A DNA stretch of 64,000 bases from Acidimicrobiia bacterium (GTDB taxonomy: Bacteria; Actinomycetota; Acidimicrobiia; Spongiisociales; UBA11373). Position numbers and translations under genes: made by a program. The notes beneath the pieces are model-generated. The model did not search any database and was not told the origin of the DNA. It saw nothing but the letters and a program-made list of their open reading frames with translations. Shown piece after piece: positions 6,594 to 27,403 of this stretch. How positions within the stretch are numbered: position 1 is the first letter of the stretch; the number at the start of each line of letters is the position of its first letter. Where the stretch lies: NCBI GenBank assembly GCA_041551965.1, contig JBFELU010000002.1:5829-69828 (forward strand), read 5' to 3'.

Positions 6594-7868
<1,275 letters not shown>

Positions 7869-7872
<4 letters not shown>

Positions 7873-10820: not shown

Positions 10821-11236
10821 CAGGCGGCCTCCTCGACGTCGGGGGCCACCACCCGGCGATAGCGCTCCCGGCGGGCGATGTTCCAATCGAGCGCCCCACG
10901 GCGCCACACGTAGACCAGGGTCTCGATCAGCAGGAAGGTGAAGATCCCCACTGCGGCCACGCCCGGCCAACCGAGTGTCTCGAATCGCACCGCCCAGGCG
11001 AAGAGGAACACGATCTCGATGTCGAAGATCACGAACAGCATCGCCACCAGATAGAACTTCACGGGGAACCGCTGGACCGGCTCCTGGAGCGGCACGATGC
11101 CGCACTCGTAGGGCTCAAGCTTCTCCGGCGTGGGGTTGCGGGGAGCGATGAGCCGGCCCAGGAGCATGACGAGGCTCGCAAAACCGAGGGCCAGGAGGAA
11201 CATGATGGCGATCGGCAGGTAGTCGGTCAGCGTCAT
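10820..11236 (-). CDS. nuoA: NADH-quinone oxidoreductase subunit A
   Basis: 138 aa protein with 3 TM helices ([27 protein letters not shown]...PYECGIVP). It is the first gene of the operon, with a GGAG Shine-Dalgarno 8-11 nt upstream of its ATG. Confidence 0.9.
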
Positions 11237-14400: not shown

Positions 14401-17398
14401 AGGCGGTGTCGAACTCCTTGATCGTCAGCGTCTCTCCATCGTCGTGGGTGTCGTTCCCCAGCCAGCTCGTCGAAGCGACGAAGGTGAACGCAGTGTCCTC
14501 GGTCGTCGTGGCGGTGTCGTCGACGGCCTTCACCGGATTGACAAACGGGTCGACCGTGACCGTCACCGTTGCCGAGGCACACTTGCCACCGGTGTCGCAG
14601 ATCTTGTAGACGAAGGTGTCGGTGCCCTCGAAGCCGTCGTCGGAGGTGTAGGTGACCTTCCCGTCTGAGGGGACGGCGGTCCCGTCTCCGGGCTGCCCCT
14701 TGATGCTCAAGGTGGCCGCATCGAGCTCACCGTCGATGTCGCTGTCGTTGGCGAGCACATCGACGGTCACCGGCTCTCCCGATTCGGTGGTGGCCGTGTC
14801 GGCCACGGCCGTCGGTTTGTCGTTCACTTCGGTGATGGTGATCGTGACGGTTGCCGAGGCGGTGCCGCCGCGCCCGTCCGAGATCGTGTAGCCGAACGTC
14901 TGAGTGCCGAAGTCCTCCGCGTCCGGGGTGTAGGTGAAGGTGGTCCCCGTCCTGGTGAGCGTCCCCTTCTCCGGATCGGTGCTCGAGGTGATGGTGAGCA
15001 AGTCGCCGTCGGGATCGGAGTCGTTGGACAGCGGAGTGATGACGACCGGTCCTCCGTCCTCGGCGACCGTGGCCGCGTCGTCGGCCGCCGACGGTGGGTT
15101 GTTGGGGTCCTCCTCGACCGTGACCTCGATGGTCACCACGGCCGAGGCCGTCCCGCCGTTGCCGTCGTCGATCACGTAGCCGAACGTGTCGAGAATGAGC
15201 CCGCTCTGGGTGGGCCCGAAGACGGGGGGCGTGTACAGGCAGGCGCCGGCCTCACACGACACGGTGCCGCCGAGCGCCGAGAACGAGTCCGGCGTGGGAG
15301 TGAGCGTATCCCCCTCCGGGTCGCCGTCGTTGGTGAGGATGTCGATTGTGACGGCGACACCTTCGATGGTTGCGCCACCGTCGGGCTCGGCAAAGGGAGG
15401 ATCGTTGACGGGTGCGACCGTCACGGTCACGATGCCTTCGGCGCACGCTCCACGCAGGTCGCAGACGCCGTAGAAGAAGGTCTCGACGCCGGACACCTCC
15501 GGGTCGGGCACGTAGCGGAGCGCACCGTCGAGGGGCATCGCCGTGCCCAGCGTCGGGGGGACCGCCACGAACAGGGTCCCCGGATCGAGTTCGTCCTCGG
15601 GGTCCTCGTCGTTCGACAGAGCCGGGATGACGACCGGCACGTCTTCGTCGGTCTCGGCCGAGTCGTCACCGACCATCGGAGGGTCGTTCACCGGGAGGAC
15701 CTCGATCATCACGGTCGCCACGCCGCCCAACCCGGCGACGTTCTCCACGCGGTAGCGGATCTCCGCCATGCCGAACCAGTTCGGCTCCGGCGTGAAGAGG
15801 ATGCCCTCGGGCAGCACCTCCGTCGTGCCGTGCTCGGGGCCCACGATGACGACCAGGGTCGCCGGATCGAGGCCCAGATCATCGAGATCGTTGGCGAGCA
15901 CGTCGACGAGCACCGGCACGTCCTCGTCGATCACGGCCTCGTCGTCCACCAGGCCGGGTGGTGCATTCGGCGACGAAGACGAGAGCAAGAGCTCGATGAG
16001 AGCCACCGGTTCGCCCTCCGGTCCCATGATGAGGACCGCCAGCCGGTCCTCACCGTCGAAGCCGGGGCCGGGCGTGTACGAGAGGATGCCACCTCGGATC
16101 GTCGCGGTCCCCCATGTCGGAGCATCCCAGATCTCTGCCGCCAGCCCCGCCGCGAGTTCCGACGGATCGAGGACTTCGATGTCGGTCGTCTCCTCGAACA
16201 GCACCCCGATCTCCACCTCCGCCCGTCGGGCATCCCCGAGCTGGATCAGCGGAACGGTCGTAGTGCTGGCGATCGTGACTTCTTCAGCTGGCAGCGGCGG
16301 GAGAGAGATCTCCGGTTCCACATCGGGGGGAGCGATCACCCCGGCACCGGCCAGAGCCAGTGCCGCCGAGGCCGCCACCGACGCCATGCCCACTCCGGCG
16401 CCTGCGCTCCGGAGGAACGGGAGCTGACCGAGCAACGAAGCGGGCCCGGCAACCCAGCGCAGCCGGCTCGGGGCGATGCGCAGGAAAGCCCGGACCACAT
16501 CGGCGTCGAATTGCCCGCCGGCGTTGCGGGCCAGTTCCTCGCGAGCCGCCGCCGCCGACAGGGGCTTCTTGTGGGATCGGCCCGAGGTCATCACGTCGAA
16601 GGCATCGGCAACCGCACAGATGCGGCCTGCCAGCGAGATCTCCTCGCCGGTCTTGCCGTCGGGGTACCCGGTTCCGTCGAAGCGTTCGTGGTGCTCGCCG
16701 ATCGCCCCGGCCCAGTCGCCGAGCCACTCCCGGAGCGGGCCGCACAACTCGAGGCCGTGCTGCGGATGCTGCTCGATCTTCGCCCACTCGGCATCGGTCA
16801 AGCTTCCGGCCTTGCCCAGGATTCCTTCGCTGATTCGAAGCTTCCCGATGTCGTGGAGGGTGGCCGCCCACCCCAGCTTCCCAAGTGATGCTTCATCGAG
16901 GCCGAGCTCTCGGCCCATCAACTCTGCATACGCCGCCACCCGGCCCCGGTCGCCGAACCGGCCGTGCTGACGTACCGCACTCGTGAGCAACTCCCCCAGC
17001 GCACCGTCGAGATCTCCGGGATCCAGGTTGCCGAGTCCGGCCAGATGATCCTCGACGGATCTTCGCGACCGCCGTGCGACCTGCAGACGTGACGGGGCTT
17101 CGCCGGGGAACTCGAGAGTCATCCCCAGCAGCGACGCCAGCGGTCCCAGGGGCCGAAGCAACGTTCGGATCGCAAACAGGCCGGCACCCGATGCCGCGAC
17201 CACGGCGCCCCACCACCCAGCCTGCTGGAGCAGACCGTCGGGGGCCGGCGCGAACCGAGCGGCGGCGACTGCAGCACCGGCGGCGCCTGCCACCGGCAAG
17301 AGCGCCGTCAGCGCCCGCACGCCGCGTGCCGGCCACGGACGCTTCTGCCACCGTTTGGCCGCGCCCCCGGATTCCTGAGGGACTTGATCCGTCATCAC
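11408..17398 (-). CDS. Giant multidomain membrane protein: N-terminal 2 TM helices, cytoplasmic HD-GYP phosphodiesterase domain, third TM helix, then ~1600-aa array of cadherin-like/VCBS-type tandem repeats with an inserted lamin-tail domain (LTD)
   Basis: Single uninterrupted 1996-aa ORF. Hydrophobic helices at about aa 27-48 and 60-80. HD-GYP signatures: LHDIGK (aa ~181), HPQHG, and EHHERFDGTGYPDG (aa ~236), spanning roughly nt 16483..17056. A third hydrophobic segment follows (GVGMASVAASAALALAGAGVIA, aa ~334-356). About 12 repeats of ~95 aa are delimited by VNDPP, VNDAP, VNDKP and VDDPP motifs, with ...TDWLGNDTD...DGTYTYTP..F.G.DTFTYTV.DG....TATVTVTV..VND.P in each. An LTD (VINEVLFEQSTGLEGIIENDEFVELYNASGHPLDVSGWMLSD) lies at about nt 12636..13019. 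GC content and codon usage match neighbouring genes. Confidence 0.8.
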   Translation of the reverse strand: MMTDQVPQESGGAAKRWQKRPWPARGVRALTALLPVAGAAGAAVAAARFAPAPDGLLQQAGWWGAVVAASGAGLFAIRTLLRPLGPLASLLGMTLEFPGEAPSRLQVARRSRRSVEDHLAGLGNLDPGDLDGALGELLTSAVRQHGRFGDRGRVAAYAELMGRELGLDEASLGKLGWAATLHDIGKLRISEGILGKAGSLTDAEWAKIEQHPQHGLELCGPLREWLGDWAGAIGEHHERFDGTGYPDGKTGEEISLAGRICAVADAFDVMTSGRSHKKPLSAAAAREELARNAGGQFDADVVRAFLRIAPSRLRWVAGPASLLGQLPFLRSAGAGVGMASVAASAALALAGAGVIAPPDVEPEISLPPLPAEEVTIASTTTVPLIQLGDARRAEVEIGVLFEETTDIEVLDPSELAAGLAAEIWDAPTWGTATIRGGILSYTPGPGFDGEDRLAVLIMGPEGEPVALIELLLSSSSPNAPPGLVDDEAVIDEDVPVLVDVLANDLDDLGLDPATLVVIVGPEHGTTEVLPEGILFTPEPNWFGMAEIRYRVENVAGLGGVATVMIEVLPVNDPPMVGDDSAETDEDVPVVIPALSNDEDPEDELDPGTLFVAVPPTLGTAMPLDGALRYVPDPEVSGVETFFYGVCDLRGACAEGIVTVTVAPVNDPPFAEPDGGATIEGVAVTIDILTNDGDPEGDTLTPTPDSFSALGGTVSCEAGACLYTPPVFGPTQSGLILDTFGYVIDDGNGGTASAVVTIEVTVEEDPNNPPSAADDAATVAEDGGPVVITPLSNDSDPDGDLLTITSSTDPEKGTLTRTGTTFTYTPDAEDFGTQTFGYTISDGRGGTASATVTITITEVNDKPTAVADTATTESGEPVTVDVLANDSDIDGELDAATLSIKGQPGDGTAVPSDGKVTYTSDDGFEGTDTFVYKICDTGGKCASATVTVTVDPFVNPVKAVDDTATTTEDTAFTFVASTSWLGNDTHDDGETLTIKEFDTASKEGGTIVDNLDGSYTYTPAAEFSGEDTFTYTATDAAGNTGTATVTVTVTAVDDPPDAVDDTASTDEDTPKVFTASTDWLGNDTDPENDPLTITAFDAASTAGGTIVDNLDGTYTYTPAAGFNGSDTFTYTVSDGAGGTDTATVTVSVGAVNDPPEATDDSAATDEDTPKLFHAATDWLGNDTDPDADPLTVSAFDGISSAGGSVVDHGNGTYTYTPPAHFGGTDTFTYTVSDGTDSDTATVTVTVSAVNDAPNAAGDWYTTAEDTPLTFTAATDWLGNDTDIEGGAITLTGFDAITAAGGTVTDLGAGSYRYDPPADFAGADTFTYSVTDGTDPATGAVLIAVTPVADAPLAGDDPDGGDTAADFEVALVATLVIPAAELVDNDTDADGDALSIVPSGPTATAQGSVTCDANGCTYTPNGTFIGVDTFTYDVTDGALTDTATVTVTVTDYVLSPEAGRAVINEVLFEQSTGLEGIIENDEFVELYNASGHPLDVSGWMLSDSDHITGSFDAPASFTYAFPGGSVIPAGGYAVLWLGVDQTTTNPGFTNVVGGTDLELWAGGSTLLDSAGDELWLYDEGYELVDFVAWGPDTAANRNGNPPDALGVWDPLPNNEGALIPVAFGQSLSLAPNGQDADDSFCWEPATSGAATCAAAALTIDTDAFGTRVTSVGGANNATTNNPPVATSDGPFPVFEDGAIVFSDAGDWLANDTDADLDPVTLSGFDVATAQGGTVTDVGGGSYRYEPPADFSGTDTFTYSITDGLGGYATATVTVAVGALNDAPAFDRGFDVVIAEDSGAHAAAWATGMTAGPADEAGQALSFEVVANSNADLFATPPAVALDGTLSFTPAADAAGTAFIGIRLRDDGGTADGGEDTSPTVMLTIVVTPVNDVPRFTKGPDVTVTEGSGAYSAAWGTGIVAGPPDEAWQVLTFEVTANDNPGLFDVLPAVAGDGTLTFTPVAVGIGTATLEIRIRDDGGTADGGIDVSAVQIFTITVGG

Positions 17399-17470: not shown

Positions 17471-18709
17471 CTAGGGCTCGGGGCCGACTTGGACGATCCG
17501 CTCGACGACCCGGTAGGCCTCTTCCGCCATGTGGTGCTCCCCGGGTCGCAGCAGGTTGGCCATCACCCGCAGGACCCACTCCATCAGCGGGCGGGACCGC
17601 AGCCCGATGCGGGTGAGGGCCTTCATCACACCCGGCCGGCCGATCGCTCTCACGAAGGCTCGAGACGTTCGGTAGTAGAGGCCGTAGGTGTCATCGAGCT
17701 CGTAGCGATAGCCGTGGAGCAGCGACGCGTCTCCGGCGGCGAGGGCGGCATGCACGTGCCGGGCGGCGATCCGGCCGGTCTCGTAGGCGTAGGCGATGCC
17801 CTCCCCGTTGAAGGGATTGACGGCGCCGGCGGCGTCACCCACCAAGACCCAGTTGGGACCGACCTTGGGACCCACCGAGAACGCCATCGGGAGCTTCCCG
17901 CCGCGTGGCTCGCTCACCTTCGAGTGAGGGCCGAGATCCCAGTACTCGGGTGCCGTCACCTCGAGCGCCGTCATCAGCACCGAGGTGTTGACATCCTTCC
18001 AGCGGTGGAAGGTCGACAACACACCGACCCCGACGTTGACGGTGCCGTCGCCCAGCGGGAAGACCCATCCGTAGCCCGGCACGGTGGCTCCCTCGGCATC
18101 TCGGAGATCGAGGTGACTCTCGATGTATCGGTCGTCGGAGCGAGGGCTGGCGTAGTAGCCGCGTGCGGCGAGCCCGAACGGCAGGTGCCGGTCCCTCTCG
18201 GCCGACAGTGACCGGCCGAACCGGCTCAGCGAGCCGTCGGCGACGACGACGATCCGGGGAGAGACGACCTCGCGATCCTCCCCCGCCACCAGCTCCACCG
18301 CAGTGAGGCGACCTTCGTCGAGTACCGGCTTGGCCTCCGTGCCGGCCCGCAGCACGGCACCCTGCTTCTCGGCCAGGCGAGCGACCTCCCAGTCGAGATC
18401 GGCCCGGCGAAGCACGCCACCCCAGTTGGGGTAGACCGGGTGGTCGGGCCATTCCAGCTCGAGCATGAGGTCGCCCGAGTAGGCGCGCAGACCACCGACC
18501 CGGTGGAACTCCGGCAGAGAGAAATCGAAGCCCATGTCCTCGAGTTGGCGGATGGAACGGGGGGTGAGGCCATCGCCACACGGCTTGGGACGGGGGTACT
18601 CCTTCTTCTCGGCCACGAGGACGGAGTGGCCCTCCCGGGCCAGCCAGTGAGCCGCGGCGGCGCCTCCCGGTCCACCGCCGACGACCAGCACGTCGAGTCG
18701 ATCGGCCAT
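17471..18709 (-). CDS. Geranylgeranyl reductase family FAD-dependent oxidoreductase (MenJ-like)
   Basis: MADRLDVLVVGGGPGGAAAAHWLAREGHSVLVAEKKEYPRPKPCGDGLTP is an FAD Rossmann plus GGR-family signature, 412 aa. The 66-aa Ser/Pro-rich N-terminal extension in the track ORF is not homologous. Confidence 0.85.
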   Translation of the reverse strand: MADRLDVLVVGGGPGGAAAAHWLAREGHSVLVAEKKEYPRPKPCGDGLTPRSIRQLEDMGFDFSLPEFHRVGGLRAYSGDLMLELEWPDHPVYPNWGGVLRRADLDWEVARLAEKQGAVLRAGTEAKPVLDEGRLTAVELVAGEDREVVSPRIVVVADGSLSRFGRSLSAERDRHLPFGLAARGYYASPRSDDRYIESHLDLRDAEGATVPGYGWVFPLGDGTVNVGVGVLSTFHRWKDVNTSVLMTALEVTAPEYWDLGPHSKVSEPRGGKLPMAFSVGPKVGPNWVLVGDAAGAVNPFNGEGIAYAYETGRIAARHVHAALAAGDASLLHGYRYELDDTYGLYYRTSRAFVRAIGRPGVMKALTRIGLRSRPLMEWVLRVMANLLRPGEHHMAEEAYRVVERIVQVGPEP

Positions 18710-18752: not shown

Positions 18753-19619
18753 CTACTCGCCGGCGGCGCCCTCGTCGATCTCGGCGAGACCGCAGTCGAC
18801 GAGAGCCTCGTCGAGTGACTGGCCGCCGAACTGGACCCGTTCGTAGAGGACCACGGCCCGGATCTCCTCTTCGGAAAGGGCGCCCTGGAAGCCGGGCATC
18901 TGGGCACCGCTGCCGCCGACCGGCTTTTCGGTGGCCCCGTAGGTCGACTCGGGCCAGTCGGCCGTGCCGAGGGTCACCCAGTCGACCTGAGCCTGGCACT
19001 GGCCCGGAGGGAAGGTCTGCAACAGGGCCCCACCGGTGAATCCGGGGAAGTTGCCTGCACCGCCCCCGCCCTCACCGTGGCACGCGGCACAGGTGGCGTA
19101 TTCGAGGCTCCCGATCGAGAAGAAGTCGGTCAACGAGAGCCCGTACGGGCTGCCGTCGCAACCCACGGCGACGCCCGAAACCGGATCGACCGCCAGCCGC
19201 CCGGCATCGCCGCAGTTGGGGCCGTTGGGGAAGAAGAGGGCATAGCCGATGGCAAAGGCCGGCACGATCATGAACAAAACCACCAGCCAGCGAGGAATGG
19301 CACCGGCAGCCACCGCGTCCTCCTCGCTCTCGTAGCGGGGTTCCTCCTCGGAGATCACTTCGGGGGCCGGAGGAGCCTCCACTCCGATCACCTCGACCTC
19401 GGGTCCCTCGGCCGGGGCCGGGGCGGCCGGAGCCTCGCCGGTCGGCTCGGCGGCAGGTGCGGTGGATTCGGCGGGAGCAACCGCCTCGCCGCCCCCCCAA
19501 GCCGCCAGCACCGATTCCATGGAAACGCCCTGGGCCTTGGCCCGCGCCTCGGCGGAACGTAGCACCAGCACCTCGGGAGTACCGAGTGCGGCGGCTGCGG
19601 CGGCGAGAAGTTCTTCCAT
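18753..19619 (-). CDS. Membrane-anchored monoheme c-type cytochrome (CcoP-like)
   Basis: Single CAACHGE heme-binding motif and one TM helix (IPRWLVVLFMIVPAFAIGYALFF). The start MEELLAAAAAALGTPEV at 19619 lies 4 nt after the upstream stop. The N-terminal segment EVLVLRSAEARAKAQGVSMESVLAAW resembles the repeat motif of the subunit IV-like protein at 23541. Confidence 0.8.
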   Translation of the reverse strand: MEELLAAAAAALGTPEVLVLRSAEARAKAQGVSMESVLAAWGGGEAVAPAESTAPAAEPTGEAPAAPAPAEGPEVEVIGVEAPPAPEVISEEEPRYESEEDAVAAGAIPRWLVVLFMIVPAFAIGYALFFPNGPNCGDAGRLAVDPVSGVAVGCDGSPYGLSLTDFFSIGSLEYATCAACHGEGGGGAGNFPGFTGGALLQTFPPGQCQAQVDWVTLGTADWPESTYGATEKPVGGSGAQMPGFQGALSEEEIRAVVLYERVQFGGQSLDEALVDCGLAEIDEGAAGE

Positions 19620-19623
19620 CGAG

Positions 19624-21531
19624 CTACTCCAGTCCCGCCACGTAGACGGCGAGAGCCGCCCGTTCATCGGCGGACAGGTGATCGAATGCCGGCATCGTCG
19701 ACCAGGGGCGGACCGCCCGCGGATCGGCCAGGTAGTCCGTCAGGGCGGCGGCATCGCCGGCGAACTGCCTGCTTCCGGCATGAGCGAGGTCGGGACCGAT
19801 CCGCATGAGACCCAGCAGATCGACGTCGTCGTTGGCATAGTCGCCGACCACCGAGACCGGACCCAGGCCCACGTCGGTCACGATCCCCCGCACCTGCTGT
19901 GTGTGGCAATACCAGCAACCTTCCCGGACGTAGAGGTCACGCCCGAGGGAACCGACGGGTTCCTCTTCGTGGGGACGGGTCGCCTCGGCGAGAAGCGAGG
20001 GAGGATCCCCGGTATCGGCCGCCGGGAGCACCACCACCGACACCGCCACGACGACGAACACCACTGCAATGCCGCGGAGGATGGTGCGGAGCGGAGCACG
20101 GGGGCCGTCGACCCCGACGTCCTCATCGAGACCGGCTCCGCCCAGCGTGACCAGGAAGCCGAGCAACAAGAAGAGGGCGGCGATGACCACCAGGCCGAGC
20201 CCGACCACCTGGGTCACCTGCAACCCCTCCAGTGGCACCACGGAGCTGCGAAAGGCTTCGCCGACATTGGCCGCCGAGTCCGGGCTCACCGACCCGACCC
20301 AGGTGTAGCCCTGCTGGAGACCGCCGATCCAACGAGAGGCGAGGACCGTGCCCAGCCCCGCCGCCAACGCCCCGATCTGCACGGCGCCGAGAGCACGGGG
20401 CCACGAACGATTCGAAGCCGCATGAACGGCGGCAAAGGCAAACGCCGTGGCGGCGCCGAAGAGCGCCAGGACCTCGACGGATCCCTCCCACAGTGTGAAG
20501 TGGAGGACCGAACTCGCACCGCGAAGCGACCCGATGAAGAGATGGATCGCCGTGATCACCACCAAGCCGACACCGATGACCGACAACTGGACCGATCGCG
20601 ACTCTGAGACCACCGCCCACCGCCCCCGCAGCGCGTGCGCGAAGTCGGCGGCGATGGTGAACGCCGCCACGATGAGACCGGCGCCGAAAAGCACCGGCAC
20701 CGTCTCGAGCCAGTCCGGCGTCGGTCCGTATTGGAGCTCCCGAGGAGCCATCCACAGCCAGGAGAAGAGCAGCGACCAGAAGCCGATCGCACCGAGCCGA
20801 GGATGAAAGGACCAACCGGTCGACCGGCCGACCAGGTAGTAGGCGATACCGATGCCGAGCATCGCCGGGCCGAGGCCGCCGATCACCGTGGCGGCGAACC
20901 GCCCCTGCAGTGCCGCAGGAACACCGTCGAGCCCGGGGATCGCTCCGGTCACGAAGCCCGCCCATTGCAGCCAAAGTCCGGCCACGACATACCAGGCCGC
21001 CGTGGGCAGCCCCTCGGTCGACCCCCGCACGGCTCGCGTGACGGCCGCGGCCATTGCCAACAAGCCGACTGCGACCGCGGCGTCGGACCACCAGGGGAGC
21101 TCGAGCAACCGGCCGCCGGCGCTCTCACCGAGGAGGATGCCCGCCGTTCCCGCGCCGAGACCACCCGCGACCGCCAGCAGGCCACCCACGGTCAATGCAG
21201 GGGCCGGCCGTTGCCCGCCGAGCCGGGGAATCACCCAGATCGCACCACCGGCCAGGCCGAGAGTGAGCCAACCCACCACCACGGCATTCAACGACGCGGG
21301 CAGGAGCCGCCCGTACGCGAGGTACTCCTCTCCGGCCAGGAAGTCGGGCCAAACGAGCTTGGCCGCAGCGGCGGCATACGCGGCCGAGCCGATCAACAGC
21401 AGCACGACGGCCACCGCCAGGTAGAGGCGGGCGATCCCGGACGGAGCCATACCGGTGGCGGCGTTCGGGGATTCGATGGTGTCGGTGGCGGGCACTCCCC
21501 CGTCCCTCCGTCGTGTGTCGGCCGAGAACAT
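19624..21531 (-). CDS. Fused CcoN-like 12-TM domain plus CcoO/FixO-like monoheme cytochrome c (cbb3-type oxidase-like; catalytic His ligands apparently absent)
   Basis: 636 aa from the ATG at 21531 (MFSADTRRRDGG); the upstream part of the 1027-aa track ORF is an artifact overlapping plus-strand genes. A ~450 aa polytopic domain with a WW motif is followed by a TM anchor, then RDLYVREGCWYCHTQQVRG...IGPDLAHAG...RPWSTMPAF. This matches the CcoO signature (IYIREGCYxCHSQ...GPDL...MPsY). The membrane domain has only 5 His in total, no HH pair, and the WW motif is followed by SD rather than GHNA. Confidence 0.72.
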   Translation of the reverse strand: MFSADTRRRDGGVPATDTIESPNAATGMAPSGIARLYLAVAVVLLLIGSAAYAAAAAKLVWPDFLAGEEYLAYGRLLPASLNAVVVGWLTLGLAGGAIWVIPRLGGQRPAPALTVGGLLAVAGGLGAGTAGILLGESAGGRLLELPWWSDAAVAVGLLAMAAAVTRAVRGSTEGLPTAAWYVVAGLWLQWAGFVTGAIPGLDGVPAALQGRFAATVIGGLGPAMLGIGIAYYLVGRSTGWSFHPRLGAIGFWSLLFSWLWMAPRELQYGPTPDWLETVPVLFGAGLIVAAFTIAADFAHALRGRWAVVSESRSVQLSVIGVGLVVITAIHLFIGSLRGASSVLHFTLWEGSVEVLALFGAATAFAFAAVHAASNRSWPRALGAVQIGALAAGLGTVLASRWIGGLQQGYTWVGSVSPDSAANVGEAFRSSVVPLEGLQVTQVVGLGLVVIAALFLLLGFLVTLGGAGLDEDVGVDGPRAPLRTILRGIAVVFVVVAVSVVVLPAADTGDPPSLLAEATRPHEEEPVGSLGRDLYVREGCWYCHTQQVRGIVTDVGLGPVSVVGDYANDDVDLLGLMRIGPDLAHAGSRQFAGDAAALTDYLADPRAVRPWSTMPAFDHLSADERAALAVYVAGLE

Positions 21532-21639
21532 TAGCCCCACCGTCCGAGGTCCACGCGGGGCGGGACGATTGTCTCGAACAGACCGGGCGGCGTCAAAGCA
21601 CGTCGGCCCGGTTCTCCCCCGGGCGGCGGGGCGCGTACA

Positions 21640-22290
21640 ATGTCGCCGCTTTCGGAGGAGGAGCCCGGCCGCGTGACCGAGCAGCAACGCGTCAGGATCG
21701 GCATCGCCGGAATCGGCGCAGGCTCGGTGCTGCTCGTGGTCGGGGTGCTGATCGCTCACTTCACGGGGCTGGCTGAAACCGACGGAGTGGGCCGGGAGAT
21801 CTACCCCCACATCCCCCGATGTCTGCCGTGGGAAGACGATCCCGCCAAGTGCTGGATGCTGCCGACGGGAGGGCAGATCATCGCGTTCGTCGGCAGCCAG
21901 CTGCTCCTGGCCGGAATCGTGCTCGGCTGGATCCTGGGGCGGCCCCTCACCTGGGCCCGGGCCTCCGCGGCCGCCATGCTTTTCACGGTCGAGGCGATCC
22001 TCCTCTTCGGCGTGGTCCCCAATCAGTGGCTCACGCTGGCGCAGGGGACCTTCGAGTGGACCGAGCAGAAGATCGCCTTCACGTTGCCGCGATGGCTCGT
22101 GCTCAACAACGAGGTCGGAATCTCCTACGGGGCGATCAAGGATCTCGTCTCCGGCGGCTACTCGGCGGTGATGCTCGGCGTGATCGCCGTCACCGCGTAT
22201 CAGTTGCAGGAGCGGGCCAAGCGCAAGGATGAGCCGCCGCCCCCGCGGATCTCGGCCTACGGTCGACCGATGGTGAAGGGAGAGCGCTAG
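21640..22290 (+). CDS. Integral membrane protein (4-5 TM), first gene of the bc-type complex operon
   Basis: Hydrophobic 216 aa protein with high GC3. An alternative GTG start at 21673 follows a GGAGGAGG Shine-Dalgarno; a TACAAT -10-like hexamer lies at 21635-21640. Confidence 0.6.
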
Positions 22291-22740
22291 ATGGCGAAGA
22301 CGGACGTTTGGTTCGAGACGCCCCCTTTCCGCGACGACTACCAACTCGCCGTCGTCGACGAGCAGTACCTTCTCGACGCCGTCAAGCCGAAGCAGTTCCT
22401 CCACATCGACCAAAGCGAGTGCATCCTCTGCGAAGGATGCGTCGACATCTGCCCGTGGAAGTGCATCCACTACCTCTCGATCGACGCCATCGCCGAATCG
22501 TCCAACGTCGACGACCCTCGCGCCGACGAGGGCAATCGGGGCTTCTTCGTGGTCGACGAGGACGAGTGCACCCGTTGTGCGCTGTGTGTGGACCGCTGCC
22601 CCACCGGCGTGATCAGCCTCGGCAAGTTCGCCGGGTCGCTGGCGGACCAGGCCGACCGGCGGGGTGTGGAGGCACCGTGGGAGGTCGACAGCGGGCAGCG
22701 CGACCACAAGAACGGCTACGCATACGGAATGCGGTTCTAG
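22291..22740 (+). CDS. 2x[4Fe-4S] ferredoxin-domain protein
   Basis: Two cluster motifs, [12 protein letters not shown] and [16 protein letters not shown] overlap with the upstream gene. Confidence 0.8.
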
Positions 22741-22748
22741 GAGGAGAG

Positions 22749-23528
22749 GTGGCAGACAACGGCAACGGCAGGGTGCGGCTGGGCGAACGGATCGCCCACG
22801 TGACCGATCGGGTCCGCGACAGCGAGGTGTGGACCAGCATCTTCCGGCCCGGATCCCCGTTCCGCAAGGGCTACGCCGACAGCCCCCGGAATCGGTCCTA
22901 CGTGATCATGAACAACGTGCTGTATCACCTCCACCCGGTGAAGGTGAAGCGGCACGCGGTGCGCCTCTCCTACACCCTCTGTCTCGGCGGGTTGAGCTTC
23001 TTCCTCTTCATCCTGCTCACGATCACCGGCATCTTCCTGATGTTCTATTACACCCCCACCTCCCCCGACGCCTACACCGACATCGCCGAGTTGTCGACCG
23101 GAGTGGCGTTCGGGCAGTTGGTTCACAACATCCACCGATGGGGCGCCCACCTGATGGTCATCACCGTGTTCCTGCACATGACACGTGTCTTCTATCACGG
23201 TGCCTACAAGCCGCCGCGGGAGTTCAACTGGGTGGTCGGCGTCGTCTTGCTCTTCCTCACCCTGCTCCTCTCGTTCACCGGCTATCTGCTCCCCTGGGAC
23301 CAATTGGCACTTTGGGCAGTCACGGTGGGCTCGAACATGGCCGGCTACACCCCGGTGTTCGGAAACCAGGTCAGCTTCGTCCTCCTCGGTGGCATCGAGG
23401 TCGGAGCCCCCACGCTTCTGCGTTTCTACGTGCTCCATGTGCTGGCTCTTCCGTTCCTGATCGTGATCTTCATGGCCGTCCACTTCTGGCGAGTGCGCAA
23501 GGACGGCGGCATCTCGGGACCCCTCTAG
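22749..23528 (+). CDS. qcrB: Cytochrome b6-type subunit of menaquinol:cytochrome c reductase (b6c/bc complex)
   Basis: GTG start at 22749 after a GGAGGAG Shine-Dalgarno. Strong similarity to PetB: FYCLGG..., [44 protein letters not shown]...[23 protein letters not shown], ending ...[10 protein letters not shown]. Confidence 0.9.
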
Positions 23529-23540
23529 AAAGGAGCGCAG

Positions 23541-24632
23541 TTGTCAGACATCCCCGAGTCGCTGCTTCGTCGCTCCGCCGAGGCCAAGGCCAAGGCCACC
23601 GGACGCCCCGTCGAGGAGATCCTCGCCGAGATGAAAGGCGAGGCCCCACCGGAGCCCGCCGAAGCGGCCCCGACCCCGACCGATGAGCCGGCCGCCGCTC
23701 CCGAGAGCGTCGCCGAAAAGGCGGCTGCGGCGACCGCGCAATTGCCGGATCACCTGTTGCGCCGCTCCGCCGAGGCCAAGGCCAAGGCCCAGGGACGACC
23801 GGTGGAGGAGGTCCTCGCCGAGTTGAAGGCGTCGGGCGCCGCCACCCCGCCCCCGCTACCCGAGAAACCCGCCCCCGAAGAGGCGGTTCCCGCGGCCGCC
23901 CCGGCGGCGCAGGCCGACCCCGAGCAAGCCGCCGCCGCCGCCAAAATGCCTGAGAAACTATTGCGCCGCTCCGCCGAGGCCAAGGCCAAGGCCACCGGAC
24001 GCCCCGTCGAGGAGATCCTCGCCGAACTCAAGGGCGAGGCCGCCCCCGCCGCACCGGCTCCCGCGGCCGCCCCGGCGGCGCAGGCCCCGGCAGCGGCCCC
24101 CGCGCCCCAGCCGAGCCTCCCCCCGGTGCCGGAGGGGGTCCGCACCCAGCGCCTCCTCACCGTCGTCAAGGCCAAGGCGATCCAGCAGGTCAAGGCCGAG
24201 CCCACCGACAAGGTGAACGTGTGGCCTCACCTGCTGGCCATCGAGTTCGTGGCCCTCTTGGCGGTGACCGCGCTCCTGGTGATCTTCTCGGTGTTCCAGG
24301 ATGCGCCGCTCCTCGAGCTGGCCAACCCGAACGACCAGCCCAATCCCTCGAAGGCTCCCTGGTACTTCCTCGGGCTGCAGGAACTGCTGTCCTACTTCGA
24401 CCCGCAGGTCGCCGGAGTGCTGATCCCCGGCCTGGGACTCGCCGGCCTGGCGATCATCCCCTACATCGACCGGAACCCCTCGACGCGGCCGGCCGACCGC
24501 AAGTTCGCCATCATGCTGTTCACGTTCTTCGTGGTGGCCTCGGCGATCCTCACGATCATCGGCTCCTTCTACCGGGGGAAGGGGTTCAACTTCACGTTCC
24601 CCTGGAGAGACGGGATCTTCTTCGACCTATGA
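23541..24632 (+). CDS. Subunit IV (PetD-like) of the b6c-type complex, with a ~210-aa N-terminal extension carrying three tandem ~65-aa repeats
   Basis: The C-terminal ~150 aa (KAPWYFLGLQELLSYF...PGLGLAGLAIIPYIDRNP) matches PetD/subunit IV. The N-terminal part carries three copies of LLRRSAEAKAKA[TQ]GRPVEE[IV]LAE[ML]K[GA]... Confidence 0.85.
   Translation: MSDIPESLLRRSAEAKAKATGRPVEEILAEMKGEAPPEPAEAAPTPTDEPAAAPESVAEKAAAATAQLPDHLLRRSAEAKAKAQGRPVEEVLAELKASGAATPPPLPEKPAPEEAVPAAAPAAQADPEQAAAAAKMPEKLLRRSAEAKAKATGRPVEEILAELKGEAAPAAPAPAAAPAAQAPAAAPAPQPSLPPVPEGVRTQRLLTVVKAKAIQQVKAEPTDKVNVWPHLLAIEFVALLAVTALLVIFSVFQDAPLLELANPNDQPNPSKAPWYFLGLQELLSYFDPQVAGVLIPGLGLAGLAIIPYIDRNPSTRPADRKFAIMLFTFFVVASAILTIIGSFYRGKGFNFTFPWRDGIFFDL
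23553..24041 (+). repeat. Three in-frame tandem coding repeats (~190-210 nt each) within the subunit IV gene
   Basis: Copies 1 and 3 share a run of roughly 50-60 identical nucleotides. The exact span was not determined, and the repeat boundaries differ (ctgcttcgtcgctcc versus ctattgcgccgctcc) (cgctccgccgaggccaaggccaaggccaccggacgccccgtcgaggagatcctcgccga), while copy 2 has diverged. All three encode LLRRSAEAKAKAxGRPVEE. Confidence 0.75.
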
Positions 24633-25405
24633 CCGTGCTCGTCATCGCCTTCGTCGCCATCGCCGTCGTCCTGGCGGCGGCCCTGTTCACCGTGGCGTGG
24701 CGCCGCGAGGACGCGGTGTCCGCTCCGGTCGAACGACCGAGGAGGGTGCGCCGCACCCGGGAGCCGGAACCGGCACCCGAGCCCGAGGCCGAGGAGGAGG
24801 TCCCGCTCGACCCGCTGGAAACACGGCCCGAGATCGACGCCGCCGGCTACGACGTCACGAGGAGACAGTTCTTCAACCGCGGCGTGCTCGGGGTCTTCGG
24901 AATCTTCCTGGCCCAATTCGGGATCGCCGCGCTCGCCTTCATGTGGCCCAAGCTCCGCTCCGGCGGGTTCGGCAGCAAGGTCAATGCCGGCAAGCTGGAG
25001 GACATCGAGAAGGAGGTGTTCCTGCCCGATGGCCGGATCGCTCCGCTCTTCGTCTCCGCCGCCCAGGCCTACGTCCTCCCGTTCCAGGGTGAGGTGGCCG
25101 GATCGTCATTCGAAGGCCTCCCCGTGGTGGCCGGCGGCTTGATCGCCTTGTGGCAGCGGTGTGTGCACCTCGGATGCCGGGTCCCGGAGTGCACCTCCTC
25201 CCAGGGCTTCGAGTGCCCCTGTCACGGATCGAAGTACAACTACCACGGCGAATACGAGGACGGGCCGGCACCCCGCAACCTCGATCGGTTCGTGGTCACT
25301 CTCAACGAGAACAACGAATTGATCATCGACACCGGCCAGGTGATCCAGACCGCCCGATCAACCACCAAGACGGCTGAGTACCCGCAGGGGCCGTCGTGCA
25401 TCTGA
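24629..25405 (+). CDS. qcrA: Rieske [2Fe-2S] iron-sulfur subunit
   Basis: CVHLGCRVPEC and CPCHGSKY Rieske boxes. N-terminal TM helix MTVLVIAFVAIAVVLAAALF. ATGA overlap with the upstream stop. Confidence 0.9.
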   Translation: MTVLVIAFVAIAVVLAAALFTVAWRREDAVSAPVERPRRVRRTREPEPAPEPEAEEEVPLDPLETRPEIDAAGYDVTRRQFFNRGVLGVFGIFLAQFGIAALAFMWPKLRSGGFGSKVNAGKLEDIEKEVFLPDGRIAPLFVSAAQAYVLPFQGEVAGSSFEGLPVVAGGLIALWQRCVHLGCRVPECTSSQGFECPCHGSKYNYHGEYEDGPAPRNLDRFVVTLNENNELIIDTGQVIQTARSTTKTAEYPQGPSCI

Positions 25406-25415
25406 GGAGCCGCTG

Positions 25416-26903
25416 ATGGGAATCGGTGCCTTCGTCCTGGCGCTGGCGGTGCTCGGCACGTTGGCGTGGCTGTGGTTCCTGGTGGGGTCGAGCCGGGTCC
25501 GCCGCCGCCGGGAAGCGCCGCCGGCCAATCAATCCCCTTTCATGACCGACGACGAGTTGGAGTCGCGACGGCTCAATTCCACTCTCGTCGGTGCCCTGGT
25601 CGCCAGCGCGGTGCTGGCGATCATCCTGCCCGTCTACTTCCTCGCCGAGACCGACCGCCAGGTGGCTTCGGTCGAGCACTTCGACGAGGTGGCGATCGAA
25701 CGAGGAGAGCACTGGTACGAGGAGTTCCAGTGCGGCGACTGCCACGGTCCGACCGGTGGAGGAGGAGGTGCCGACTACTTGGAGAGGCGCAGCGGCCTCA
25801 CCACATCGTGGGCGGCTCCGTCGATCAACGACGTCCTCTACCGCTATGACGCCGACGAGGTTCGCTACTGGCTGGTCTTCGGCAGGGCCGGCAGTCCCAT
25901 GCCCGCCTGGGGAACCGAGGGAGGCGGACCGCTCAACAGCCAGCAGATCGACGAACTGATCGCCTACCTCGACGCCTTCAGGATTCCCCAGGTGGAGGCG
26001 GTCTCCGAGGTCGAGGGTTCGGTGGCGAGAGAGCTCGCCCGGCTCGCCAACGCCGATGCCACCATCGCCGATGCGATCGATCGGCAGCGGGAGGAAATCC
26101 GGGCCATCGAGGAGGCACCGGCCGTCTATGCGGTGCTCTCCGACGTCGAGGAACGGCTGGCCGGGATCCTGGCCGAGACGTGCAGCGACGAATCAGCGGC
26201 CATCGTGGACAGGACCTGCGAGGAGGAGACGCCGGATCGAGACCGCGACGGTTTGCCGGACGAGGCCGAACGGCAGCTGGCGGAGCTCATCTCCTTCGTC
26301 GTGGCCGAGGCACCGCCCAGCGACGCCGCCGCCGCCCTGGAACGGGCGACGTTCGATCCGGATGCTGCGTTCTCGACGTCGGAGGGCACGACTCCGGTGG
26401 CCGACCTCGCGCTCGCCGAGGCCGTCGCCGGGGAGATCGCGACGATCGTTCGCGACCTCCGCTTGACGGTGGACTCTCAGGAACGCTTGCTGGAGACGGC
26501 AGCCGCCGGGCTCGAGTTCCTGGAGGAGGCTGCCGAGGAACGGCGCTTCGCCATCGATTTCGACGCCCTCGCCGTTGCCTTCGACGGCAACGTCTCCGAC
26601 GCCCGGCGCGGAGCCGCCCTCTACAACGCCTACTGCGCCCGGTGCCACACAGCCGGCTACTCGGCCGGGGTGGCATTCACGCAAGAGGCCGGCTCGGGTG
26701 GTTTCGGGCCGTCGCTGACCGGAGGCCGCTCGGTGGTTCAGTTCCCCGACCCGGCCGACCATCTCGGATTCATCGTCAACGGCTCCGAGAACGGGAAGGC
26801 CTACGGCGTCAACGGCGTGGGCCGGGGCTGGATGCCGGGATTCGGAGTGGTCCTCAGCGAGGAGGACCTGATGTTGATCGTCACGTTCGAGAGGACCCTG
26901 TGA
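25416..26903 (+). CDS. qcrC: Membrane-anchored diheme c-type cytochrome of the bc complex
   Basis: Two heme motifs, CGDCHG (aa ~106) and CARCHT (aa ~407), plus an N-terminal TM helix. An acidic Ala/Glu-rich segment of ~250 aa separates the heme sites. Confidence 0.85.
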   Translation: MGIGAFVLALAVLGTLAWLWFLVGSSRVRRRREAPPANQSPFMTDDELESRRLNSTLVGALVASAVLAIILPVYFLAETDRQVASVEHFDEVAIERGEHWYEEFQCGDCHGPTGGGGGADYLERRSGLTTSWAAPSINDVLYRYDADEVRYWLVFGRAGSPMPAWGTEGGGPLNSQQIDELIAYLDAFRIPQVEAVSEVEGSVARELARLANADATIADAIDRQREEIRAIEEAPAVYAVLSDVEERLAGILAETCSDESAAIVDRTCEEETPDRDRDGLPDEAERQLAELISFVVAEAPPSDAAAALERATFDPDAAFSTSEGTTPVADLALAEAVAGEIATIVRDLRLTVDSQERLLETAAAGLEFLEEAAEERRFAIDFDALAVAFDGNVSDARRGAALYNAYCARCHTAGYSAGVAFTQEAGSGGFGPSLTGGRSVVQFPDPADHLGFIVNGSENGKAYGVNGVGRGWMPGFGVVLSEEDLMLIVTFERTL

Positions 26904-27403
26904 TGCCGACCGGCCTGCGCCGCGATGAACGAGGGCTGAGCAGCCTCGAGTGGCTCGGCATCGTGTTGGCGGTGCTCATCCTGCTGTCGCTGATACCCCA
27001 GTTCCGGGCGGCACTGGACGTCTTCTACGAGAACCTGGTCGGCAAGAACAACGTGAGCCCCGACGGCGAACCGGCGCCCGGCGTCCTGGTCCGCGGTCTG
27101 ATCGTCGCCGTCGCCTCGCTGGCCGTGTTCGCCGGATCGGTCTACCTCATCAACTACACGAACCTGGGCCGGAGGCTCGCCTTCCTCGTGACCGGCACCG
27201 CCTTCTTCGGATTCCTGGCGGTCGTCGGCCTGCTCTACTCCCTCTACGCGCCGCGCGGGCTGCGGCCCACCTCGCTCGAGGGTCTCAACGCCTTTGAGCT
27301 CCGCATCCTCCCCGGGGCGTTGATGGTCGGATCGCTCATCCTGTTCGCCATGTTCCTCACCGCCCTCAACCGGTTCGAATCGGAGAGCGGGGACGACGAG
27401 TAA
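26903..27403 (+). CDS. Small polytopic membrane protein, last gene of the bc-complex operon
   Basis: 166 aa with 4 hydrophobic segments. The ATG overlaps the qcrC TGA (TGATG). High GC3. Confidence 0.6.
   Translation: MPTGLRRDERGLSSLEWLGIVLAVLILLSLIPQFRAALDVFYENLVGKNNVSPDGEPAPGVLVRGLIVAVASLAVFAGSVYLINYTNLGRRLAFLVTGTAFFGFLAVVGLLYSLYAPRGLRPTSLEGLNAFELRILPGALMVGSLILFAMFLTALNRFESESGDDE

What the first reader, a model, noticed from the sequence alone, without database searches (positions are those of the whole stretch)
18753..24632. Shared ~25-aa N-terminal motif LLRRSAEAKAKAxGrPVEEiLAElKGEA: once in the CcoP-like cytochrome c and three times in tandem in the b6c subunit IV-like protein
Subunit IV (23541..24632) begins with three tandem ~65-aa repeats, each containing ESLLRRSAEAKAKATGRPVEEILAEMKGEA. 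Repeats 1 and 3 are nearly identical at the DNA level (~60 identical nt), which suggests recent duplication or gene conversion. The monoheme cytochrome c encoded divergently (18753..19619) starts with the related EVLVLRSAEARAKAQGVSMESVLAAWGGGEA, before its TM helix. Both segments are predicted to be cytoplasmic, N-terminal to the first TM helix. A shared short amphipathic module on subunits of two different respiratory complexes suggests a docking motif. It could bind a common partner (assembly factor, tether, supercomplex contact) or mediate bc-oxidase association.
Basis: seen in the sequence. Interest (0 to 1): 0.75.

Follow-up and report, generated by a model that had tools for sequence, protein, structure and literature searches.

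The report
Shared cytoplasmic mini-domain on respiratory subunits
A previously undescribed 40-45-residue three-helix domain, strung on flexible Pro/Ala linkers, sits on the cytoplasmic tails of subunit IV of a b6c-type complex III and of the c-type cytochromes of a neighbouring haem-less "pseudo-cbb3" module in all Acidimicrobiia relatives examined, which suggests a common docking handle whose partner is unknown.

Summary
Subunit IV (23541-24632, +) starts with three copies of the motif, and the monohaem cytochrome c (18753-19619, -) has one diverged copy. No other copy exists in the 64-kb window.

It is a folded domain, not a low-complexity helix. AlphaFold gives three helices at pLDDT 90. 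Copies are separated by disordered Ala/Pro/Glu linkers, like beads on a string.

It is conserved in every intact orthologue in about 50 Acidimicrobiia species: 1-5 copies in subunit IV and 1-4 in the cytochrome c. In one clade it also heads a separate CcoO-like cytochrome. A profile search of 1.84 billion proteins gave only 376 hits, and all classifiable ones among the 150 listed are products of this gene cluster. Pfam, NCBIfam and PDB have no match.

Function is inferred: most likely a multivalent cytoplasmic docking module shared by one assembly. Copy numbers on the two hosts correlate negatively.

The "oxidase" premise is wrong. The CcoN-like protein lacks all six metal-ligand histidines in 60 orthologues, so "bc-oxidase association" needs rewording. 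No partner is identified.

The parts
19488..19619 (-). Single complete copy (W-type, three helices) of the domain at the extreme N-terminus of the monohaem cytochrome c: MEELLAAAAAALGTPEVLVLRSAEARAKAQGVSMESVLAAWGGG
   Evidence: AF2 gives pLDDT 89.9 with helices at 2-12, 16-30 and 34-41.
19299..19487 (-). Acidic Ala/Pro/Glu-rich linker between the domain and the TM helix of the cytochrome c
   Evidence: Sequence. Linker composition across orthologues.
18753..19298 (-). TM anchor (aa 108-130, 19230-19298) and periplasmic monohaem cytochrome c domain (CAACH at 19077-19091). CcoP-like only in a loose sense.
   Evidence: Pfam PF00034 at 28 bits, FixP_N below its cut-off. TIGR00782 at 26.6 bits against a 180-bit cut-off. 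Coordinates.
19624..21540 (-). Fusion of a CcoN-like 12-TM protein, which lacks all six canonical His ligands, with a CcoO-like monohaem cytochrome c (CWYCH retained). This is the partner of the cytochrome c above.
   Evidence: alignment to 3mk7_A. One search covers 60 orthologues.
23544..23642 (+). Repeat 1 of subunit IV: N-terminal copy lacking helix 0 (two-helix hairpin), M-type
   Evidence: AF2 helices at 6-20 and 24-31, pLDDT above 90.
23706..23837 (+). Repeat 2 of subunit IV: complete three-helix copy
   Evidence: AF2 helices at 55-66, 70-84 and 88-99.
23916..24038 (+). Repeat 3 of subunit IV: complete three-helix copy. It shares a 59-nt identical run with repeat 1.
   Evidence: AF2 helices at 128-135, 138-152 and 156-163.
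24150..24632 (+). Conserved juxtamembrane helix and the PetD-like three-TM core of subunit IV
   Evidence: PF00032 at aa 261-342. The top 80 of 418 relatives in species-representative genomes are 75-98% identical.
21640..23528 (+). Co-conserved upstream genes of the same operon: a 216-aa membrane protein, a 2x[4Fe-4S] ferredoxin (22291-22740), and cytochrome b6 (about 22758-23528) with the CLGG cysteine. In b6f/b6c cytochromes this cysteine binds haem ci.

Best explanation
The motif is the core of a small, autonomously folding three-helix domain. Its pattern is H0 'ELLxxAAxAxG', then 'MP', then HA 'ExLVxRSAxARAKAxG', then HB 'xxVExVLAE(W/M)xG'. The domain is displayed in the cytoplasm, in one to five copies, on long disordered Ala/Pro/Glu linkers.

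It sits at the N-termini of membrane subunits encoded by one conserved Acidimicrobiia gene cluster:
- subunit IV of a haem-ci-type b6c complex
- the monohaem CcoP-like cytochrome c
- in one clade, the CcoO-like cytochrome of a cofactor-less 'pseudo-cbb3' module

The most likely mechanism is inferred, not shown. The domains would act as multivalent docking handles on flexible 'fishing lines'. They would either bind a common cytoplasmic partner or bind each other. Either way they would recruit that partner to, or hold together, a single supramolecular assembly made of the b6c dimer and the pseudo-cbb3 cytochrome c module.

Copies on either host appear to feed one shared pool of valency. Copy number changes quickly by duplication and loss within the repetitive linker DNA.
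For: Shown:
1. It is a folded domain. AF2 gives pLDDT 89.9 and pTM 0.69 with three helices.
2. In the whole subunit IV tail, three confident modules are separated by linkers with pLDDT below 50, and pTM is 0.27. This is a beads-on-a-string layout.
3. It is conserved wherever testable. Every intact subunit IV (1-5 copies) and every intact cytochrome c (1-4 copies) among 52 species-level loci has a copy. The only two zero counts, L001 subunit IV and L030 cytochrome c, are split ORFs whose N-terminal piece carries the motif. The first copy of subunit IV has a median 76% identity to the window.
4. It is exclusive to this cluster. There are 376 hits in 1.84e9 representative proteins. All classifiable hits among the 150 listed are subunit IV, CcoP-like or CcoO-like proteins. 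A motif-only scan of metagenomes gave the same three hosts. There are no other copies in the window.
5. All host positions are cytoplasmic and lie upstream of a TM helix.
6. Linkers are 35% Ala, 18% Pro and 10% Glu, with a median of 41 aa. This is the composition of the tethers in 2-oxoacid dehydrogenase E2 (my knowledge).
7. The two divergent operons are adjacent in essentially all loci with enough flank.
8. Copy numbers on the two hosts are negatively correlated. Spearman is -0.44 (p = 0.001). With independent contrasts r = -0.39 (p = 0.005). The total is 3-4 in 37 of 52 loci. This fits interchangeable copies in one assembly.

Inferred: that the function is binding, and that the two sets of subunits form one assembly.
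Against: - No partner was identified and no interaction was tested.
- AF2 shows no confident packing between the three copies of one tail (pTM 0.27). This gives no support to self-association, though it is weak evidence either way.
- Most conserved positions are small or hydrophobic (Ala, Ser, Gly, Leu). Core packing of a tiny bundle could explain them without any binding surface.
- The copy-number correlation is modest. Only 10 of the 15 contrasts in which both hosts change have opposite signs.
- Host-specific subtypes could mean different partners rather than one. The first copy is W-type in 51 of 53 cytochromes c and M/L-type in 54 of 64 subunit IVs.
Confidence: 0.45

Rival explanations
1. 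A nucleic-acid-binding module derived from a helix-turn-helix or ANTAR-like domain. It would tether the complexes to DNA or RNA, for example to the nucleoid or to their own mRNAs.
For: - Internal repeats of some homologues give weak, summed matches to HTH families on P0019: Xre-like-HTH at E 7e-10, plus HTH_23, Sigma70_r4_2 and HTH_31.
- Helix HA carries conserved Arg and Lys (RS.A(R/K)AKA).
Against: - No individual stretch passes any Pfam threshold. The window copies give no HTH or ANTAR hit even at E <= 10.
- Foldseek finds no natural match with E below about 7.
- The core is electrically neutral (mean -0.05 and -0.66). The tails are acidic, with a median of -3 for subunit IV and -14 for the cytochrome c, down to -54. 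This is unlike DNA- or RNA-binding tails.
Confidence: 0.08
2. A biogenesis or quality-control handle. The domain would be recognised by an assembly factor, chaperone, protease adaptor or kinase that acts on all subunits of the cluster. It would matter during insertion, assembly or turnover rather than in the mature complex.
For: - The domain is always at the extreme N-terminus, so it is the first part to emerge from the ribosome. It lies upstream of the first TM helix in three unrelated hosts.
- One stray homologue (P0152, a multi-TM protein) lies next to a Caa3_CtaG assembly gene.
- The invariant Arg-Ser could be a modification site. The N-terminus of chloroplast subunit IV is a kinase target (my knowledge).
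Against: - Variable multi-copy arrays and 40-aa rigid linkers are not needed for a recognition tag.
- No candidate factor is encoded in the conserved cluster.
- The negative copy-number correlation between hosts is not predicted if each subunit needs its own tag.
Confidence: 0.17
3. No specific ligand. The acidic tails with small folded beads would act as entropic spacers or bristles. They would keep the cytoplasmic face of the complexes clear, set spacing in the membrane, or tune solubility.
For: - The tails are long (median 125-143 aa, up to 411), acidic and mostly disordered.
- Copy number and linker length are very variable.
- AF2 shows no inter-domain contacts.
Against: - A spacer does not need a domain conserved at about 76% identity across a class. 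Several positions are at least 90% conserved: P15, R21, S22, A25, A27, L38 (48 copies).
- It also would not need two host-specific subtypes maintained since the clade's origin.
Confidence: 0.12
4. A direct lock-and-key contact. The M-type copies of subunit IV would bind the W-type copies of the cytochromes c and zip the b6c complex to the pseudo-cbb3 module.
For: - Two subtypes have a strong host preference.
- Both operons are always adjacent.
- Both tails lie on the same side of the membrane.
Against: - Copy numbers are negatively, not positively, correlated.
- M-type copies also occur in the cytochrome c of several lineages.
- No interaction was tested.
- The partner is not an oxidase.
Confidence: 0.18

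Closest known systems
Peripheral-subunit-binding domain (PSBD) and lipoyl domains on Ala/Pro-rich linkers in the E2 core of 2-oxoacid dehydrogenase complexes
   Same: A very small helical domain (35-50 aa) flanked by long Ala/Pro(/Glu)-rich flexible linkers. In E2 the lipoyl domains vary in copy number (my knowledge). The PSBD recruits partner enzymes to a large assembly. The linker composition here is 35% Ala and 18% Pro.
   Different: There is no sequence or profile similarity: no Pfam E3_binding hit. This domain has three helices and the PSBD has two. The hosts here are membrane respiratory subunits. The partner is unknown.
Helix-turn-helix domains (Xre-like-HTH PF20432, HTH_23, sigma-70 region 4) and ANTAR RNA-binding domains
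   Different: No single copy passes any family threshold. The domain is neutral to acidic. It is attached to membrane cytochrome subunits. No nucleic-acid link is known.
N-terminal stromal segment of chloroplast/cyanobacterial cytochrome b6f subunit IV (PetD)
   Same: Same host protein family and the same side of the membrane. In Chlamydomonas this segment is a docking and phosphorylation site for the Stt7 kinase (my knowledge).
   Different: Canonical PetD N-termini are short and unstructured and carry no such domain. TIGR01156 matches only aa 227-340 here. The tail here is about 195 aa with three folded modules.
bc1-cbb3 respiratory supercomplexes of Rhodobacter capsulatus (PMC7876108) and Pseudomonas aeruginosa (PMC10556555); the actinobacterial bcc-aa3 supercomplex
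   Same: A complex III physically and genetically coupled to a CcoN/O/P-type module, with membrane-anchored c-type cytochromes as the electron bridge.
   Different: From my knowledge (these papers were listed but not read here), those assemblies are held together by transmembrane and periplasmic contacts and use a catalytically competent oxidase. Here the CcoN-like subunit has no metal ligands, and the shared element is a cytoplasmic domain not described for those systems.

Membership tests
Cytochrome b6f/b6c subunit IV (PetD; PF00032) | C-terminal half of cytochrome b (helices E-G) as a separate polypeptide, scoring above the Pfam cut-off and encoded directly after a split cytochrome b6 | tested here: met
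   PF00032 scores 40.1 bits against a 20.7 cut-off at aa 261-342. The cytochrome b6 gene (PF00033, 158.6 bits) ends 12 nt upstream. The equivalog TIGR01156 scores only 21.3 bits against 127, so this is a divergent member.
Cytochrome b6f/b6c subunit IV (PetD; PF00032) | Partner cytochrome b6 carries the Cys that binds haem ci (b6-type rather than bc1-type) | tested here: met
   The motif YTLCLGG is present in the b6 ORF. That this Cys binds haem ci comes from knowledge of b6f and Bacillus QcrB, not from a test here.
CcoP (cbb3 oxidase subunit III; TIGR00782) | Dihaem c-type cytochrome (two CxxCH) with an N-terminal FixP_N anchor, scoring above the equivalog cut-off | tested here: not met
   There is one CxxCH only. 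TIGR00782 scores 26.6 bits against 179.95. FixP_N scores 19.4 bits against 24.9.
cbb3-type haem-copper oxidase (CcoN) | Six invariant His ligands (haem b, haem b3, CuB) and the cross-linked Tyr | tested here: not met
   Alignment to 3mk7_A gives H60->S, H207->A, H257/H258->R/E, H345->S, H347->E and Y251->W. In 60 orthologues His is absent from five of the six ligand columns and occurs once (1 of 60) in the H257-equivalent column. There is no conserved His in the first 480 aa.
Helix-turn-helix families (PF20432 Xre-like-HTH, PF13384, PF08281, PF13560) | A single domain scoring above the Pfam gathering threshold | tested here: not met
   The window copies give no HTH hit at E <= 10, apart from FitA-RHH at E 0.13 on a relative. 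On multi-copy homologues only summed scores appear, with 0 stretches passing individually.
ANTAR RNA-binding domain | Sequence profile match (PF03861) and structural match well above background | tested here: not met
Twin-arginine (Tat) signal peptide | S/T-R-R-x-F-L-K followed by an uncharged hydrophobic h-region and a cleavage site, at the N-terminus of an exported protein | tested here: not met
   The RR is followed by SAEAKAKA, which is charged and helical. The motif recurs internally up to 5 times, and the segment precedes an N-in TM helix.
Any curated domain family (Pfam-A, NCBIfam) or solved structure | A significant profile match of the domain itself | tested here: not met
   Pfam gives nothing for the domain. 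NCBIfam gives nothing on the tails. A PDB profile search has a best E of 0.53. Homologues in the public collection carry only PF00032 and are named 'hypothetical' or 'menaquinol-cytochrome c reductase cytochrome b subunit'.

The most novel reading that the evidence does not exclude
The domain would be the cytoplasmic organiser of a previously unrecognised respiratory supercomplex of Acidimicrobiia. In it, a haem-ci b6c dimer with an attached 2x[4Fe-4S] ferredoxin would be joined to a catalytically dead CcoN scaffold carrying two membrane-anchored c-type cytochromes. The multivalent three-helix handles on subunit IV, CcoP-like and CcoO-like tails would hold the assembly or arrays of it together, or would recruit a cytoplasmic redox partner to its n-side.
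Probability: 0.25. Interest if true: 0.8.

Novelty: new variant of a known kind. Interest (0 to 1): 0.62.

Why it matters
Respiratory supercomplexes are normally explained by transmembrane or periplasmic contacts. A clade-wide, cluster-exclusive cytoplasmic domain shared by subunits of a complex III and of a cbb3-derived module would be a different organising principle. It gives a concrete and easily expressed handle (45 aa) for finding what binds to the n-side of these complexes.

The follow-up also shows that genes routinely read as 'cbb3 oxidase' in Acidimicrobiia metagenomes encode a CcoN without any haem or copper ligands. This affects metabolic inferences about micro-aerobic respiration drawn from these abundant marine and sediment bacteria. 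It also raises the question of what a cofactor-less oxidase scaffold does next to a b6c complex.

Tried and rejected
- **Word-indexed protein search with the motif**. It returned only short fragments of up to 91 aa. These were mostly N-terminal pieces of subunit IV from frameshifted assemblies (context check). They were useless for architecture but confirmed the Acidimicrobiia origin.
I rebuilt the alignment from session protein hits (A6).
A3 worked.
- **Foldseek against AFDB** was not available.
- **Literature searches** for Acidimicrobiia b6c or cbb3, subunit IV extensions, and haem-less CcoN found nothing relevant.
- **Low-complexity artefact**: rejected by the window HMM scan and by the 1.84e9-protein search.
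- **Tat signal and coiled coil**: rejected from the sequence and the AF2 model. The helices are at most 15 residues.
- **MIF hits in Pfam**: sub-threshold per copy and biologically meaningless.
- **Stray architectures**: P0155 is the domain plus a truncated SDR and may be a chimera. P0017 and P0018 join the tail and the first TM helix of subunit IV to the small membrane protein encoded after the dihaem cytochrome c, and may be deletions or chimeras.
- **Recent gene conversion between the cytochrome c copy and the subunit IV copies in this genome**: not supported. Protein identity is 46%, and the W and M subtypes are old, host-specific lineages.
- **Multimer prediction**: not possible with the tools.

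Full report
**1. The observation**

The region contains two divergent gene sets.

On the minus strand:
- a MenJ-like geranylgeranyl-reductase-family flavoprotein (17471-18700)
- a monohaem cytochrome c (18753-19619)
- a CcoN-CcoO fusion (19624 to about 21540)

On the plus strand:
- a 216-aa membrane protein (21640-22290)
- a 2x[4Fe-4S] ferredoxin (22291-22740)
- cytochrome b6 (about 22758-23528)
- subunit IV (23541-24632)
- a Rieske protein (24635-25405)
- a dihaem cytochrome c (25416-26903)

Subunit IV starts at a TTG, 7 nt after AAGGAG. It carries three copies of the motif, at aa 2-34, 56-99 and 126-166. The DNA periods are 192 and 204 nt. Copies 1 and 3 share an uninterrupted 59-nt identity and 92 of 120 nt.

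The cytochrome c starts at the ATG at 19619, with MEELLAAAAAALGTPEVLVLRSAEARAKAQGVSMESVLAAWGGG. At the DNA level this copy pairs with subunit IV copies 1 and 2 as an inverted repeat, 78-83% over 41-45 nt.

I built an HMM from the four copies and scanned all six frames of the window. It recovers only those four (E about 1e-20). The next best hit has E = 0.34.

**2. What the unit is**

An Ala-rich helix (H0, 'ELLxxAAxAxG') precedes 'MP-ExLVxRSAxARAKAxG-xxVExVLAE(W/M)xG'.

AlphaFold2 on the cytochrome c copy with 48 aligned copies gives pLDDT 89.9 and pTM 0.69. The helices are at 2-12, 16-30 and 34-41.

The whole subunit IV tail (aa 1-195) is predicted as three confident modules separated by linkers with pLDDT below 50, and overall pTM is 0.27. 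Copy 1 has two helices and copies 2 and 3 have three each. The tail is a beads-on-a-string arrangement with no confident inter-domain packing. In the orthologues inspected, the first copy of subunit IV begins at the initiator Met and lacks H0.

Across orthologues the linkers are 35% Ala, 18% Pro and 10% Glu, with a median length of 41 aa. The domain core is electrically neutral. The tails are acidic, with a median of -3 for subunit IV and -14 for the cytochrome c.

**3. Conservation and distribution**

A search of one genome per GTDB species with only the TM core of subunit IV found 418 relatives. The best 80 loci are nearly all labelled Acidimicrobiia or unclassified Actinomycetota MAGs; three carry other labels.

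In those loci the gene order is conserved: MenJ-like, cytochrome c, CcoNO, then membrane protein, ferredoxin, b6, subunit IV, Rieske, dihaem c.

First-pass HMM counts:

| Host | ORFs with 1 copy | 2 copies | 3 copies | 4 copies | 5 copies |
|---|---|---|---|---|---|
| Subunit IV (71 ORFs) | 47 | 16 | 6 | 1 | 1 |
| Cytochrome c (48 ORFs) | 20 | 19 | 5 | 4 | 0 |

A more sensitive HMM counts at least one copy in every intact subunit IV and every intact cytochrome c except two. Those two (L001 subunit IV, L030 cytochrome c) are split ORFs whose N-terminal piece carries the motif.

The first copy of subunit IV has a median 76% identity to the window. This is similar to the catalytic TM core, which is 75-98% identical.

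A profile search of 1.84 billion cluster representatives gave only 376 hits at E <= 1e-3. Among the best 150, the classifiable ones are subunit IV, CcoP-like cytochromes c, CcoO-like cytochromes, or fragments of these.

A scan of metagenome contigs using only the motif gave 44 loci. The motif-bearing ORFs were:
- subunit IV: 35
- CcoP-like cytochrome c: 18
- CcoO-like cytochrome: 9
- unclassified, mostly truncated or frameshifted pieces of the same genes: 12

In eight of the nine CcoO-like hits the cytochrome is a separate protein with the layout domain, linker, TM helix, CxxCH. The ninth lies in an over-extended ORF.

Neither Pfam nor NCBIfam has a family covering the domain, and PDB has no sequence match. 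Public homologues are annotated only with PF00032.

Two subtypes exist:
- The W-type ends in 'LAEWAG'. It is the first copy in 51 of 53 cytochromes c.
- The M/L-type ends in 'LAEMKGE'. It is the first copy in 54 of 64 subunit IVs.

M-type copies also occur as later copies in the cytochrome c of several lineages.

**4. Dynamics**

The three-copy state of the window is shared with the 98%-identical relative L002. Most of the next relatives, at 87-92% identity in the TM core, have one copy.

Copy numbers on the two hosts are negatively correlated. Spearman is -0.44 (p = 0.001). With phylogenetically independent contrasts on a b6 + subunit IV + CcoNO tree, r = -0.39 (p = 0.005). The total per genome is 3-4 in 37 of 52 loci. 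The effect is modest: only 10 of the 15 informative contrasts have opposite signs.

**5. Topology**

In the cytochrome c and in the CcoO-like proteins, the tail is followed by a single TM helix and then by a CxxCH domain. A c-haem domain must be periplasmic, so the tail is cytoplasmic. Subunit IV N-termini lie on the n-side in all b6f structures (established knowledge).

**6. The 'oxidase' is not an oxidase**

I aligned the CcoN-like part to P. stutzeri CcoN (3mk7_A). All six metal-ligand histidines are replaced, and so is the cross-linked tyrosine: H60->S, H207->A, H257/H258->R/E, H345->S, H347->E, Y251->W.

In 60 orthologues His is absent from five of the six ligand columns and occurs once (1 of 60) in the H257-equivalent column. 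There is no conserved His anywhere in the first 480 residues. The CxxCH of the CcoO part is invariant.

The small cytochrome c also fails the CcoP model. It has one haem site, and TIGR00782 scores 26.6 bits against a 180-bit cut-off.

The second 'complex' is therefore a cofactor-less CcoN scaffold carrying two membrane-anchored c-type cytochromes. It is always encoded back-to-back with the b6c operon. I read the whole cluster as encoding one functional unit. This is an inference from synteny and from the shared domain.

**7. Fold comparison**

On multi-copy homologues Pfam reports summed sub-threshold matches to HTH families, for example Xre-like-HTH at E 7e-10 on P0019, with no single stretch passing. 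The H0-turn-HA stretch ('SLEEAAAxLGMPEKLLRRS') does look like an HTH signature, so descent from an HTH is plausible. Membership is not established. The neutral-to-acidic charge argues against nucleic-acid binding.

**8. Mechanism**

What is shown:
- a folded mini-domain
- multivalent display on flexible acidic Pro/Ala tethers
- cytoplasmic location
- exclusivity to three or more subunits of one conserved cluster
- strong purifying selection on the domain with rapid copy-number turnover
- partial compensation of copy number between hosts

What I infer: the domain is a docking handle that serves one assembly. It either recruits a common cytoplasmic partner or cross-links complexes by self- or cross-association. 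My confidence is 0.45.

The architecture is closest to the PSBD and lipoyl 'swinging arm' arrangement of E2 cores.

Rivals, with my confidence in each:
- a strict M-W lock-and-key contact between the two modules (0.18). The negative copy-number correlation disfavours it.
- a biogenesis, turnover or modification tag (0.17)
- a ligand-free acidic spacer (0.12). The degree of conservation disfavours it.
- nucleic-acid binding (0.08). The charge and the failed family tests disfavour it.

**9. Novelty and verdict**

The domain family is undescribed in Pfam, NCBIfam, PDB and the searched literature. Its kind, a small tethered interaction domain added to respiratory subunits, is known in principle. 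I therefore rate it a new variant of a known kind.

It is of real interest to bioenergetics. It marks a clade-wide, uncharacterised b6c + pseudo-cbb3 unit and offers a simple experimental handle. Function remains unproven, and all sequences come from uncultured organisms.

Noticed in passing
window 20100-21540 (-), CcoN-like part of the ORF 19624-21540: The CcoN-like protein, fused to a CcoO-like cytochrome, has lost all six canonical haem/CuB histidine ligands and the cross-linked Tyr. His is absent from five of the six ligand columns in 60 orthologues and occurs once (1 of 60) in the sixth. The CcoO CxxCH is invariant. This is a cofactor-less 'pseudo-oxidase' that annotation pipelines would call cbb3.
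   Followed up: yes
L064:2332-3279 (-), L071:4967-5764 (-), L091, L093, L099, L102, L105, L113, L115, L124; protein P0154: In another Acidimicrobiia clade the CcoO-like cytochrome is a separate protein whose N-terminus carries the same domain (W-type). This makes a third host. P0145 suggests that the domain can also sit in the cytoplasmic linker between the CcoN and CcoO parts.
   Followed up: partly
window 22291-22740 (+) and 21640-22290 (+); b6 at about 22758-23528: A soluble 2x[4Fe-4S] ferredoxin (NuoI/RnfB-like) and a 216-aa four-TM protein with no family are encoded immediately upstream of cytochrome b6. Both are co-conserved in the cluster. The b6 keeps the CLGG cysteine, which in b6f/b6c cytochromes binds haem ci. 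This suggests an n-side electron input, and these are the obvious candidate partners for the domain.
   Followed up: no
window 25416-26903 (+): The dihaem cytochrome c has an acidic, helix-looking insertion of about 200 aa between its two haem domains (Pfam hits at aa 94-186 and 395-491).
   Followed up: no
window 24150-24194 (+): The conserved juxtamembrane segment RLLTVVKAKAIQQVK, just before TM1 of subunit IV, matches the repeat unit at 77% over 30 nt (D2). In other species the sensitive HMM picks up a degenerate half-copy ('GVPxxLLxRAxxARAKAEGRE') near the TM core. This may be a relic copy or the ancestral seed of the domain.
   Followed up: partly
proteins P0017 (618 aa, 7 copies) and P0018 (413 aa, 3 copies); window 26906-27403 (+): Two metagenomic proteins join a multi-copy tail and the first TM helix of subunit IV to a homologue of the small membrane protein encoded after the dihaem cytochrome c in the window. 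They are either deletion fusions or assembly chimeras.
   Followed up: no
window 11408-17398 (-): A giant ORF of about 2000 aa. Its N-terminal part reads like an HD-GYP domain (HDIGK ... HHERFDGTGYP). It is followed by many Asp-rich cadherin/VCBS-like repeats ('VNDPP', 'DxDGD') and a lamin-tail-like segment. I read this from the translation only and did not scan it.
   Followed up: no
window 4176-10899 (-) and 17471-18700 (-): Complex I genes (NuoG, NuoF, NuoD, NuoC-like) and a MenJ-like menaquinone reductase flank the cluster, so the window is a respiratory gene neighbourhood. The MenJ-like gene is co-conserved with the cluster in most loci.
   Followed up: partly
L082:30-1187 (protein P0152): A 385-aa multi-TM protein of unknown family starts with a W-type copy of the domain and lies next to a Caa3_CtaG assembly-factor gene on a 2.4-kb contig. 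It is the only candidate host outside the cluster, and the context is too short to judge.
   Followed up: partly
window 24635-25405 (+): The Rieske protein appears to have an extra N-terminal TM helix and an acidic cytoplasmic loop before a Tat-like 'TRRQFFNRG' segment. I read this from the translation only.
   Followed up: no
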